From NCBI GenBank assembly GCA_030264375.1, contig JASCQW010000098.1, positions 25,807,285-25,871,187 on the forward strand: a DNA stretch of 63,903 nt, written 5' to 3'. Made by a program: the position numbers. This DNA comes from Carcharhinus longimanus. Its lineage: Eukaryota. Positions within the stretch are counted from its first letter, which is position 1. The number at the start of each line of letters is the position of its first letter. This document shows positions 54,001 to 57,000 of the stretch, one piece after another.

Positions 54001-57000
54001 AGGAGAAGGTCTCTTCACTAAATTTGGTGAACAGTGATGTTCTTCCCACTGCCTTGACTCTTCAACAGGTTAGTGGTGTAAGTTCCAAATGGTGATTTCT
54101 GATGGCCACAACAACCTTTAAGTATACACTGGAATTGCACATTGTCTTTTCATAATGTGCCATAGAGTAATATGATAGGAGCGAGTATGTGATGAACCAG
54201 AATAAGGCTCCTCATTAGCAAAGACCCATGCCCTAGAGGGCTTCACATTGTCTGATCATCTTGTAGCTCACTGGGCAAGCACTAACCGTAAGGACATACT
54301 ACTTGTGTATCAGAGGACACATGCATCCAAGTATCTGGCCATATTATTCTTAGGTGTCCCGCCTCCTGTGTGGAGTTGGGATTAATGTATTTCAAGAACC
54401 CATCTGAAACTGCTGGATGTAAATGTTATTTCACAGCATGTGCTGCAGACAACTGAGGCATATTTAAGGGAGTCACACCAACATTTCATTGGCTTCTTTG
54501 TCCCAAGTGTAATGTTTAAGTTTCACCATTGATGTAACACATTGTGCGTGGCTGCCTGGTCACAATGGATCTCATTAAGGAGTCTTTCCAGATGGAGGGT
54601 TTGTAGTCAATGTCCCACTCATGATAGTACAAATGGCTATGCATGTTGTAGGGTGCTATTGCAACTAGGAAGCTGGATAAATGTGTGAGGATGCAGGACT
54701 TTCTAATGCCTGATGTTAGGATGACCTCCTTGAGGTAGCAGCACCTCATGTTAGGATGGACACATGCCCGTGAGGCATACTTGTTATTCAAAGGATCAGG
54801 GCAATATGAGTGAGCTGTGATATAATGTAGTGTCATCTGGAAGCACATGGCAGAAATTTGAGGAGTAGCAATGATCATGTTCATGCTGTCCCTTGATGGA
54901 GGAGACTTGTCCAGGAGGGTCTTCAATGCATCTTGTAACTCTCCTCCTTGAATCTGCTGGCAATGAGTGCCTAACAAATATGCCAGTTTCTCTTTACCTG
55001 CCTTCTTGACTTCCAGGAATCATTACCATCAAGAAGTCTTTGCAGGAGACATGGAGCACCCCCAACTCCTCATTTGTCAGGTCATCCTACCTTTGTAGCA
55101 TCAGGTTGTGTAGAACACAAAAAGCCACACTGATAGTCATACCCTCTGGGGAGCGTACTGGAGTGCTCTGCCAGATCTGTCCAGGCATTGTAATTTGCTT
55201 TTCAGGATCCCTAGGGTGTGTCTGGGTTGTGACATTAGCCTTGTCATACCTCCTCTCAGCAAGTGTCTGAGGCCACCACATGAATGTTATCACAGGCAAA
55301 TCCTTTTTGCAGATAAATTCTTGTTACTGAGGAGTTAACCTTGCATCCTGTATGGCCTCTAGAAGATGTAAAGGATCTGAGACCTACTGAGGATGTATTC
55401 GTTGATGCTTCAGGGGTATCTGGCACAAACCTGCATGAGACATTTGTTATCACCAGACACTCACTGAACCTTGAGCAAGTGAAAGCCTTTGCGATTGATG
55501 TACTGGGCTGTTTGTTGCTGGGGAGCTTTTAGAGCCTCAAAGATATAGTCACCCTGCAATTGTGGAAATCCAGAAATATCAGGAAAAGCCCAGTGCCCAG
55601 CTTGCCTGATCTCTGTTGACATTGACAAAATTGTGGGCAAAGATAGCAGCTGTGACCCCCTAAATGTATTTGTGGGTGAAGGTTTGCCAAATTCTGCAGA
55701 TACAGATGTCCCCAATGGAGTCCTGGAAGAAGTCATTGTTGAGTATGATGGTGACTTTCCCTGCGACTGGCAGTAAATGCCCTCCAAGTCCTCAAGACAC
55801 AAAATTCTGTAGCAGATGGCATATGTGAGTGACCAGATCGCTTGGCATGAGCTGGTATGGGCAACACTGGTTCTCACTCATCTGCAGGTAGAACTTGTGA
55901 CATCTATACGCCCTTGCTCCAGCAAGACACCTACAAATGACAGCTCTCAGGGGACCATCTTCTGTATCTGGAGGATGCCCTGTTGCTTGTTGGTCTTGGA
56001 GGTTCAGCTCCTTCTCTCGGCAAACTAGGTGCCTTCATCTCCTTCGTCTCTCCTGCCTGTAAGCCGTTATGCAGGCAGCAATAACACTAGCCACCATTTT
56101 CCTAATGATCTTCTTACTGCAGTATTAATGAGGGAGACAAAAGATTCAGCATTTGTATCCAAAAGTCTCTACTGTAATGCAAACTTCTCCAATACATCGT
56201 CACTAACTGTCCCAGGTTCCCAAGTCTTCATGTCTTTCTTCACAGTAAACATAGAAGAGAAATATTCATTGAGAACTTTGCCCATCTCCTGCAGTTCCGC
56301 ACATGTGTGTCCACTTTGGATCTATTTTCTTTCTAGCTCTTTTTCCTTTAATACACTTAAAGTATCCCTTTGGATTCATCTTAATCCTCACAGCCAAAGC
56401 TACTTCATACTCCCTTTTTGCTCTTCTAATTTCCTTCTTGACTGTACTTCTGTATCACCTGTACACCTCCAGAGAATCCCTTGATTCCAGCTATTTTAAT
56501 ACACTCAATGAGTGCCTTATTCGAGTCTTTACGTCGCTCGGCGACGGTTTGGACTACCTCTGGCGAAACCACATTCAAGGGCTCGCTGATCTTAATTGAG
56601 GAACGTGAGCTGTTGTCTAAGCTAGAGATGTTATAACTAGCTAACTAGTGTCATCCCGATCTAATAGGGACCTACTGATGAGCCATTTTGTTGGTACCGA
56701 GTGCACAAGAACCCTCATAATGACGAGGGTGGAAATTTAGAGGGTTATTTATGCCAGATTAATGGGAATCCAATTACAGGACAATTTATTGTCGCCAATC
56801 AGCCTACCCTGCATGTTTTTGGAATGTGGGAGGAAACCGGAGTGCCTGGGGAAAACCCACGAAAACACAGGGAGAATGTGCAAACTCCCACAGACATTAA
56901 CCCAGGTCGGAATTCATTCCTGGATCTCTGTTACTGCCCAGCACACAGTGCTAACCACTGAGCTGACGTGTTGCCCATTGACCAGTCCAGAAGTAGCACG

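What the first reader, a model, noticed from the sequence alone, without database searches (positions are those of the whole stretch)
56779..56976. V-SINE head built into an R2 3' UTR: a captured module or an R2-tailed SINE
Seen: a co-oriented tRNA-derived head and V-domain with no CR1-type tail and no evident TSD, running straight into the last ~285 nt of R2. It looks clearly more diverged from the window's HE1 copies than the CpG-rich R2 ORF is decayed. Inference: it was captured by the active R2 lineage rather than inserted into this copy. The unit 56976-56494 has the architecture of a SINE mobilised by R2 (Pol III head, core, LINE tail). Caveat: the B box is degenerate and internal T4 runs could stop Pol III.
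Basis: partly seen in the sequence, partly recalled or inferred. Interest (0 to 1): 0.7.

Follow-up and report, generated by a model that had tools for sequence, protein, structure and literature searches.

The report
SINE fragment inside shark R2 tail
A dead, out-of-place copy of the ribosomal-DNA retrotransposon R2 in a shark-like genome carries the front two-thirds of a V-type SINE inside its 3' untranslated region, most likely as a passenger already present in the R2 RNA that made this copy, not as a working R2-driven SINE.

Summary
Window 56976-56754 (minus strand) is a SINE head plus V-domain, co-oriented with an R2 ORF. It lies 297 nt after the native R2 stop and 260 nt before the element's 3' end. 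It has a complete SINE 5' end, no LINE-type tail and no target-site duplication. The R2 copy is ectopic (no 28S flank) and dead (4 frameshifts, 3 stops). From the ORF to 56494 it forms one CpG-rich block (o/e 0.55-0.95, against 0.11-0.25 outside). The SINE piece looks as worn as ordinary dispersed copies: about 8% private changes, and 3 of 11 inferred CpG sites kept. The three stops imply only about 2-3% decay of the R2 ORF. So the SINE piece most likely predates this copy's arrival and rode in the R2 RNA (confidence about 0.55). The "R2-tailed SINE" reading is not supported. The B box is degenerate, two T4 runs lie upstream of the tail, and the window holds no stand-alone copy. The decisive test is whether other R2 copies carry the segment. 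It could not be run, because no eukaryotic DNA collection was available. Interest is moderate.

The parts
57274..60658 (-). R2 ORF remnant (zinc-finger region, RT, C-terminal endonuclease region). It is dead, and its 5' end runs into an N run that was left unfilled.
   Evidence: Pfam RVT_1 at E 1.2e-21. PDB R2Tg and R2 proteins at E 1.5e-50 and 1.7e-36. Best database relative is a Scyliorhinus torazame hypothetical protein, 63% identity. tblastn shows frames -3/-1/-2/-3/-1, which means 4 frameshifts. There are 3 in-frame stops, at 58083, 58020 and 57897. CpG o/e is 0.65.
56977..57273 (-). 3' UTR part A, between the native stop codon and the SINE head.
   Evidence: The C-terminal piece aligns to the end of solved R2 proteins. 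CpG o/e is 0.55. There is no similarity to anything else in the window. The fold z-score is -1.27.
56754..56976 (-). SINE-derived segment: complete 5' end, tRNA-related head, V-domain and about 45 nt of post-V body. It has no LINE-type tail.
   Evidence: blastn E 1e-27 and 1e-28 to the 9608 copy. Alignment A1. Identity to the 9608 copy is 78%, and 66-67% to four of the other six copies (56% and 49% to the two most decayed). CpG o/e is 0.37, from 5 CpG.
56955..56965 (-). A-box-like motif of the head, with 1 mismatch to the recalled consensus. The B-box region downstream is degenerate.
   Evidence: No B-box match with 2 or fewer mismatches lies inside 56754-56976, whereas the copies at 9195, 11721, 2535 and 303 match with 0-1 mismatch.
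56852..56865 (-). Two T4 runs inside the V-domain (56865-56862 and 56855-56852). These are potential Pol III stops upstream of the tail.
   Evidence: Three main-family copies have none in the body.
56494..56753 (-). 3' UTR part B, the terminal about 260 nt of the composite element. It ends in an A4 run followed by TAGC.
   Evidence: CpG o/e is 0.95, from 12 CpG. The border with the flanking LINE fragment is at 56490-56494. The first 4 nt after the end equal the first 4 nt of 28S downstream of the R2 site, as given by a primer in PMC3414825. The fold z-score is -1.60.
56190..56490 (-). Flanking fragment of an unrelated LINE ORF2. It is old and CpG-poor, and it is not 28S.
   Evidence: tblastn with P0012, P0013, P0016 and P0018 gave E 1e-9 to 1e-25. 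CpG o/e is 0.25. No 28S target motif occurs in the window: 0 matches at 3 or fewer mismatches.
9608..9930 (+). Closest dispersed SINE copy. It belongs to the same subfamily and has its own LINE-type tail. Used as the comparator.

Best explanation
A full-length V-type SINE retroposed into the permissive upstream part of the 3' UTR of an R2 element and later lost its own tail. Alternatively, it recombined in. The terminal about 260 nt of the UTR stayed intact. In R2Bm, from recall, this terminal part is what the R2 protein needs to start target-primed reverse transcription. An R2 RNA that already carried this dead SINE piece then made the present copy at a non-rDNA site inside an old LINE fragment. 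That copy has since decayed by about 2-3%. The SINE piece is a passenger of the R2 transcript, not a working Pol III unit.

Shown: the anatomy, the ectopic and dead state of the copy, the CpG-rich block, and the relative wear of the parts.

Inferred: the order of events, the passenger role, and the way the tail was lost.
For: 1. One block with a sharp edge. CpG o/e is 0.65 (ORF), 0.55 (A) and 0.95 (B), against 0.25 in the adjoining LINE fragment and 0.11-0.17 in the flanks. Part B therefore arrived with the R2 and is its 3' end. TAGC follows the end.

2. The SINE piece is worn like old dispersed copies.
- Private changes are 13 of 160 sites, against 15 of 160 for the 9608 copy.
- After CpG masking they are 11 of 134 against 10 of 134.
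- Four of the five main-family copies differ from their own consensus by 7-11% (the fifth, the most decayed, by 21%).
- The segment retains 3 of 11 inferred CpG sites, against 1/11 to 4/9 in the others.

3. The R2 ORF is much less worn.
- 3 stops in 3378 nt fit 2-3% divergence.
- P(3 or fewer stops) is 0.002-0.008 at 8% divergence.
- P(11 or more private changes in 134 sites) is 0.0025 at 3% and 0.07 at 5%.

4. A fresh SINE insertion would bring a tail and a target-site duplication. Neither is present.

5. Two T4 runs and a degenerate B box fit a segment carried in a non-Pol III transcript.

6. Precedents:
- R2 subfamilies carrying snU12 or tRNA sequence (PMC3414825, passages).
- Fish R2 with 28S-derived sequence in the 3' UTR (PMC5035012, section 17).
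- The MER6 transposon spreading a V-SINE fragment (PMC6887750, passages).
Against: - Only one R2 copy could be examined. The window holds no other.
- The 'private' changes are counted against a consensus of 5 decayed copies and a single subfamily mate. Some may be diagnostic of an unsampled sub-subfamily, which would make the segment look older than it is.
- The SINE's CpG count does not differ significantly from the R2 level (P 0.08-0.13) or from the flank level (P 0.055).
- Three of its lost CpG sites are shared with the 9608 copy, so they may be losses at subfamily level.
- The stop-based age has a wide error. Frameshifts may include assembly errors.
- Loss of the tail needs a further, unobserved event.
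- The 4-nt TAGC overlaps the start of LINE homology (G and C at 56491-56490). It would occur by chance in a 30-nt border zone about one time in nine.
Confidence: 0.55

Rival explanations
1. One-off nested insertion at this locus. The SINE retroposed into the UTR after the R2 copy had landed here, and a later deletion removed its tail, one target-site duplication and perhaps some UTR.
For: - Nested TEs are the rule in this window: 6 other SINE loci and several LINE fragments.
- The SINE has a complete 5' end, as a normal retroposition gives.
- The R2 copy is dead and free to decay.
- The CpG count of the segment is statistically compatible with either age.
Against: - About 8% private divergence against about 2-3% for the host copy.
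- No tail and no target-site duplication, so at least one extra deletion with convenient ends is needed.
- Both neighbouring UTR parts kept high CpG while the segment kept 3 of 11 sites.
Confidence: 0.25
2. R2 really ends at 56977. The stretch 56976-56494 is a separate SINE whose tail (part B) comes from some LINE, R2 or another, lying next to the R2 by chance or by a template jump. This includes the reader's 'R2-tailed SINE'.
For: - It has head-body-tail architecture with a complete SINE 5' end abutting part A.
- Parts A and B share no similarity.
- R2 reverse transcriptase is reported to jump templates in vivo (PMC3414825, passages).
- A master that had already lost its head CpGs but kept a CpG-rich tail would reproduce the CpG pattern.
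Against: - Two T4 runs at unit positions 112 and 122 and a B box with more than 2 mismatches. Both T4 runs are unlikely to have arisen during about 3% of decay, so the source RNA probably had them.
- No tRNA call from ARAGORN or Rfam.
- There are 0 further copies of part B in 62 kb that hold 6 other SINE loci.
- The same-subfamily 9608 copy continues into a different, LINE-type tail exactly where homology ends.
- There is no 28S-like or other junction signal at 56977.
Confidence: 0.1
3. Assembly artefact: reads from an R2 UTR and from a dispersed SINE were wrongly joined.
For: The scaffold is fragmented: 11 N runs, one of them inside the R2. R2 and SINEs are both repeats.
Against: - Two precise misjoins would be needed, each landing in CpG-rich R2-type sequence.
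- The segment is not identical to any other window copy; the best is 78%.
Confidence: 0.05

Closest known systems
MER6/MER6A: a Tc1/Mariner-derived MITE that carries a V-SINE fragment (PMC6887750, passages read)
   Same: A V-domain-bearing SINE fragment sits inside another mobile element and is spread by that element's machinery rather than its own. The SINE part is incomplete and cannot run itself.
   Different: In MER6 the host is a DNA transposon and the head is missing while the tail is kept. Here the host is a non-LTR element (R2), the head is kept and the tail is missing. Spread by the host is documented for MER6 and only inferred here from one copy.
R2 variants with captured cellular RNA: snU12 or tRNA at the 5' end in Drosophila (PMC3414825, passages), and fish R2 with 28S-derived sequence in the 3' UTR (PMC5035012, section 17)
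   Same: R2 lineages can take up foreign RNA-derived sequence and, at least for snU12, apparently propagate it as a subfamily.
   Different: Those captures are at the 5' end, by an end-to-end template jump, or come from the target gene. Here a retroposon fragment lies in the interior of the 3' UTR, which an end-to-end jump does not explain simply.
R2 SIDEs and R2/R1 hybrid SIDEs (PMC3414825)
   Different: SIDEs are internal deletions with an R2 ribozyme at the 5' end. They are not Pol III units and they sit in rDNA. Here there is no stand-alone unit, and the Pol III signals are defective.
HE1-type V-SINEs of sharks and rays, partner LINE HER1 (table in PMC3747384; the original paper PMC155270 is not held)
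   Same: tRNA-related head plus conserved central domain, shared with the window's dispersed copies.
   Different: No partner-LINE tail and no target-site duplication. The segment belongs to a side subfamily, with 24 shared-derived sites with the 9608 copy out of 160.

Membership tests
V-SINE superfamily (HE1-like) | Conserved central V-domain | tested here: met
   The segment aligns with 7 other window SINE copies across the central block, with blastn E down to 1e-27. That these copies are V-SINEs rests on my recall of the domain and on the shark context. No reference V-domain was available to a tool.
V-SINE superfamily (HE1-like) | tRNA-derived head with working A and B boxes | tested here: not met
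   The A box has 1 mismatch. No B-box match with 2 or fewer mismatches lies inside the segment. ARAGORN found 0 tRNAs. Rfam gave no tRNA hit at E up to 10. The box consensuses are recalled motifs.
V-SINE superfamily (HE1-like) | 3' tail shared with a CR1/L2-type partner LINE, and target-site duplication | tested here: not met
   Homology to the same-subfamily copy stops at 56754, where that copy goes on into its tail. There is no direct repeat at the borders.
R2 non-LTR retrotransposon | Single ORF with an RT domain and a C-terminal zinc-knuckle/endonuclease region homologous to R2 proteins | tested here: met
   PDB R2Tg and R2 proteins at E 1.5e-50 and 1.7e-36. Pfam RVT_1. Shark and bird R2-like proteins at 39-63% identity. 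The ORF is broken by 4 frameshifts and 3 stops.
R2 non-LTR retrotransposon | Insertion at the conserved 28S rDNA site | tested here: not met
   The 15-nt 28S motif downstream of the R2 site has 0 matches in the window at 3 or fewer mismatches. There is no rRNA hit in Rfam. The flank is a LINE fragment. This copy is ectopic. The site preference of the family is untested.
R2 non-LTR retrotransposon | N-terminal zinc fingers plus Myb domain, and a 5' self-cleaving ribozyme | not testable with these tools
   Only weak zinc-finger hits were found, at E 4e-4 to 3e-3, all below their cut-offs. The 5' end lies in an N run that was left as it is.
R2-dependent non-autonomous element (SIDE, or a hypothetical R2-tailed SINE) | Stand-alone copies that end in the R2 3' end, with a 5' end able to produce the RNA (ribozyme or Pol III promoter without an internal terminator) | tested here: not met
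   The window holds no second copy of part B. The B box is degenerate and two T4 runs lie before the tail. A genome-wide search was not possible.

The most novel reading that the evidence does not exclude
An active shark R2 lineage, including its rDNA-resident masters, stably carries a SINE head and V-domain inside its 3' UTR. That would be a flow of sequence from SINE to LINE, the reverse of the usual direction. It would place the widely conserved V-domain in the RNA that the R2 protein copies. It would also be the raw material from which a Pol III-driven, R2-dependent, rDNA-targeted SINE could arise.
Probability: 0.3. Interest if true: 0.6.

Novelty: new variant of a known kind. Interest (0 to 1): 0.35.

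Why it matters
SINEs are known to borrow LINE tails. The reverse, a site-specific LINE that carries and spreads a SINE module, is barely documented. The origin and the reason for conservation of SINE central domains such as V are described as unknown (PMC5786205, passages).

If the segment proves to be a fixed part of a shark R2 family, it would show three things:
- The part of the R2 3' UTR upstream of the terminal about 260 nt tolerates more than 200 nt of foreign RNA.
- There is a natural case of cargo in an element now used for gene insertion (PMC13188248, passages).
- There is a plausible first step toward an R2-dependent SINE, a class not found in my searches.

If it is a one-off, it is an ordinary nested repeat.

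Tried and rejected
Searches that found nothing:
- Protein search with a plus-strand ORF spanning the A/SINE junction (56741-57127), hoping for other copies among predicted proteins. There were 2 candidates and none was significant.
- Word-indexed protein search with the LINE fragment. There were 6 candidates and none was significant. The exhaustive HMMER search then gave 7 hits.

RNA tests:
- Rfam at E up to 10 on 56300-57400 gave no R2 3' UTR element, tRNA or rRNA. The only hits were four weak ones: RFPL3-AS1_1 at E 0.0012, well below its gathering score, and SNORD65, Antizyme_FSE and IRES_Bip. I treat these as chance.
- RNA folds of A, the SINE segment and B gave z-scores of -1.27, -0.27 and -1.60. 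None is remarkable, so they give no argument either way.

Repeats:
- Two 10-11-nt motifs are shared between A and B in swapped order (families D2 and D5). I judged them to be at chance level, since there are 5 such families in 811 nt.

Model considered and set aside:
- A double template switch during R2 reverse transcription could make an interior insert. Reported R2 jumps go from a 5' end to another RNA, so two internal switches would be needed.

Literature:
- Five full-text searches gave no paper describing a SINE fragment in an R2 UTR or a SINE with an R2 tail.
- The 2026 R2 survey that first reports chondrichthyan R2s does not contain the word SINE in its main text.

Not used: the genome-contig scan. 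That collection holds only bacteria and archaea.
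Full report
**Setting.**
- The window is vertebrate. Rfam finds the six hairpins of a mir-17~92 cluster at 26477-27198 and nothing ribosomal.
- It is rich in tRNA-headed SINEs with a conserved central block. I recognise this kind, from recall, as the V-SINE or HE1 type of sharks and rays. A review table lists HE1 for sharks and rays with partner LINE HER1 (PMC3747384).
- The closest database relatives of the R2 protein are hypothetical proteins of Scyliorhinus torazame (63% and 56% identity) and Chiloscyllium punctatum (54%). 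Bird R2 proteins reach 39-40% (11 proteins at E of 1e-10 or below).
- Nothing in the window was taken for human.

**The R2 copy.**
- On the minus strand, from 60658 down to 57274, lie pieces of one R2 ORF.
- Pfam finds RVT_1 at E 1.2e-21.
- phmmer against PDB sequences hits R2Tg (9dou) and two other R2 proteins, at E 1.5e-50 for the RT/thumb piece and 1.7e-36 for the C-terminal piece. The C-terminal alignment runs to within about ten residues of the protein's end. The stop at 57274 is therefore the native one.
- I ran tblastn with 4 of the 11 relatives (P0001, P0003, P0005, P0006). The ORF lies in frames -3, -1, -2, -3, -1, which means four frameshifts.
- The last frame holds three in-frame stops: TGA at 58083, TAA at 58020 and TAG at 57897.
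- The ORF pieces were sent to tools one by one. The joined ORF was neither built nor searched.
- The 5' end runs into an N run, which I left as it is. The N-terminal domains, the 5' UTR and any ribozyme are unchecked.
- The copy is not in rDNA. The 15-nt 28S sequence just downstream of the R2 site (a primer in the methods of PMC3414825) has 0 matches in the window at 3 or fewer mismatches. Rfam gives no LSU hit at E up to 10 in 56300-57400, and none at gathering threshold anywhere in the window.

**The 3' UTR and its border.**
- Downstream of the stop, CpG observed/expected stays high: 0.55 in 57273-56977 (part A) and 0.95 in 56753-56494 (part B). It then drops to 0.25 in 56493-56040 and to 0.11-0.17 further out. 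The ORF itself is 0.65 and the window mean is 0.28.
- The low-CpG sequence that follows is a fragment of an unrelated LINE ORF2. An exhaustive HMMER search with a 62-aa ORF from it gave 7 hits at E of 1e-3 or below.
- I ran tblastn with 5 of these 7. Four align to 56490-56190, starting at 56490 (P0016) or 56484 (P0013). The fifth, P0015, is a repetitive protein and gave no alignment.
- The last bases are an A4 run followed by TAGC. TAGC is also the first four bases of 28S after the R2 site. That fits an R2 co-transcript priming at an ectopic nick by microhomology. However, G and C may belong to the LINE, and a 4-mer in a 30-nt border zone is expected by chance about once in nine. I give it little weight.

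**The SINE segment.**
The best match is 9608-9782, at E 1e-27.
- With the whole UTR as query, the match to that copy covers window 56973-56754. The segment is therefore about 223 nt and part B about 260 nt.
- In an 8-sequence alignment the segment begins at the column where the other copies begin, so it has a complete SINE 5' end.
- At 56754 the homology stops. The 9608 copy continues for about 125 nt into a tail of its own. The R2 copy continues into part B, which matches nothing else in the window.
- No direct repeat brackets the segment.

**Is it more worn than the R2?**
- Raw identities mislead. Four main-family copies are 72-76% alike among themselves. The embedded copy is 66-67% like four of the other six copies (56% and 49% like the two most decayed), but 78% like the 9608 copy, the closest pair in the set. 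The two form a side subfamily.
- I made a three-way count, using as outgroup the majority of five main-family copies (c11664, c33205, c9265, c400, c2620). I dropped c47785 because it aligns at only 49-54%.
- Over 160 sites the count gives 24 shared-derived changes, 13 private to the embedded copy, 15 private to the 9608 copy, and 5 sites where all three differ.
- After masking 42 CpG-context columns, 134 sites remain: 19 shared, 11 private to the embedded copy and 10 private to the 9608 copy.
- The main-family copies differ from their own consensus by 7-11%; one differs by 21%.
- The embedded segment is therefore as worn as an ordinary old copy, at about 8% (95% CI 4-14%).
- It keeps 3 of 11 inferred ancestral CpG sites, against 1/11 to 4/9 in the others (again without c47785). 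Three of its lost sites are shared with the 9608 copy and may be losses at subfamily level.
- For the R2 ORF, 3.9-4.5% of possible substitutions would create a stop. Three stops in 3378 nt therefore fit 2-3% divergence. At 8%, 10-12 stops would be expected, with P(3 or fewer) of 0.002-0.008.
- Conversely, 11 private changes in 134 sites have P 0.0025 at 3% and 0.07 at 5%.
- The CpG count of the segment (5) is not decisive alone. P(5 or fewer) is 0.08-0.13 at the R2 level, and P(5 or more) is 0.055 at the flank level.

**Reading.**
- Parts A and B are young and arrived with the ORF. The segment between them looks old and has neither tail nor duplication.
- The simplest account is that the segment was already in the RNA that made this copy. 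A SINE had retroposed earlier into the UTR of an R2 progenitor, upstream of the terminal region, and had lost its tail.
- From recall, the last about 250 nt of R2Bm suffice for protein binding and priming. The 2026 survey used truncated 3' UTRs as templates (PMC13188248, passages).
- I put this reading at about 0.55.
- The main rival, insertion after arrival followed by deletion, gets about 0.25. It needs the 8% to be sub-subfamily signal, which one comparator cannot exclude.

**The R2-tailed SINE idea.**
- The unit 56976-56494 has the right outline but fails the tests that can be made here.
- The A box has one mismatch.
- No B box is found at 2 or fewer mismatches, while four other copies match at 0-1 mismatch.
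- ARAGORN and Rfam see no tRNA.
- Two T4 runs lie 112 and 122 nt into the unit. Both changes are unlikely to have arisen during about 3% of decay, so the source RNA probably had them. That speaks for a non-Pol III transcript.
- No second part B exists in 62 kb that hold 6 other SINE loci.
- An R2-dependent SINE would be expected in rDNA, which this window cannot show. I keep this family of readings at about 0.1, including the reading in which part B is the tail of some other LINE.

**What is known.**
- R2 can pick up foreign RNA. snU12 and tRNA sequences occur at R2 5' ends, with a possible snU12-bearing subfamily, and R2 SIDEs are explicitly not Pol III units (PMC3414825, passages).
- One fish R2 lineage has 28S-derived sequence in its 3' UTR (PMC5035012, section 17).
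- The V-domain has already hitch-hiked once on another element: the MER6 MITE, which carries a headless V-SINE (PMC6887750, passages).
- The origin of conserved SINE bodies is called unknown (PMC5786205, passages).
- The first chondrichthyan R2s were reported in 2026. The main text of that paper has no occurrence of 'SINE'.
- Five searches gave no report of a SINE piece in an R2 UTR or of an R2-tailed SINE.

**What stayed unchecked.**
- No eukaryotic DNA collection was open, so other copies of this R2 family, stand-alone units and read support could not be examined.
- The attempt to reach other copies through predicted proteins failed.

**Verdict.** This is a real and neatly delimited chimera. 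It is probably a passenger of an R2 transcript. It is a variant of known module capture by mobile elements, and its wider meaning hangs on one missing comparison.

Noticed in passing
window 26477-27198 (-): A complete mir-17~92-type cluster. Six Rfam hits lie above gathering score: mir-17 three times, mir-19 twice and mir-92 once. A GC-rich stretch (GC 0.56) lies at 28001-30000 and may be the host gene's CpG island.
   Followed up: no
window 58899-58918: A perfect 20-nt palindrome lies inside the R2 RT-coding region, in the zone (58910-58971) where the reading frame shifts. It looks like a small hairpin-type duplication or insertion.
   Followed up: partly
window 57151-57171: A 10-nt unit is repeated in tandem with 11-nt spacing in part A of the R2 3' UTR (family D4).
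   Followed up: no
proteins P0001, P0003, P0004: The closest R2-like proteins of two other sharks sit on contigs of 255-533 kb. Ectopic, non-rDNA R2 copies may therefore be common in sharks. Their context could not be read.
   Followed up: no
window 47250-48412 (+) and about 50574-50672 (-): Further LINE ORF2 fragments related to the one that flanks the R2 (tblastn with P0013, E 5e-12 and 0.002).
   Followed up: no
window 33230-33260 (-): Just upstream of the SINE copy at 33205 lies what looks like the end of another SINE tail, with the same motif as the tails at about 11930 and about 32930. This suggests tandem or nested SINE insertions.
   Followed up: no
window 57209-57311 (+): A weak Rfam match to RFPL3-AS1_1 (24.8 bits against a gathering score of 70, E 0.0012) on the strand opposite the R2 stop-codon region. 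Taken as chance.
   Followed up: no
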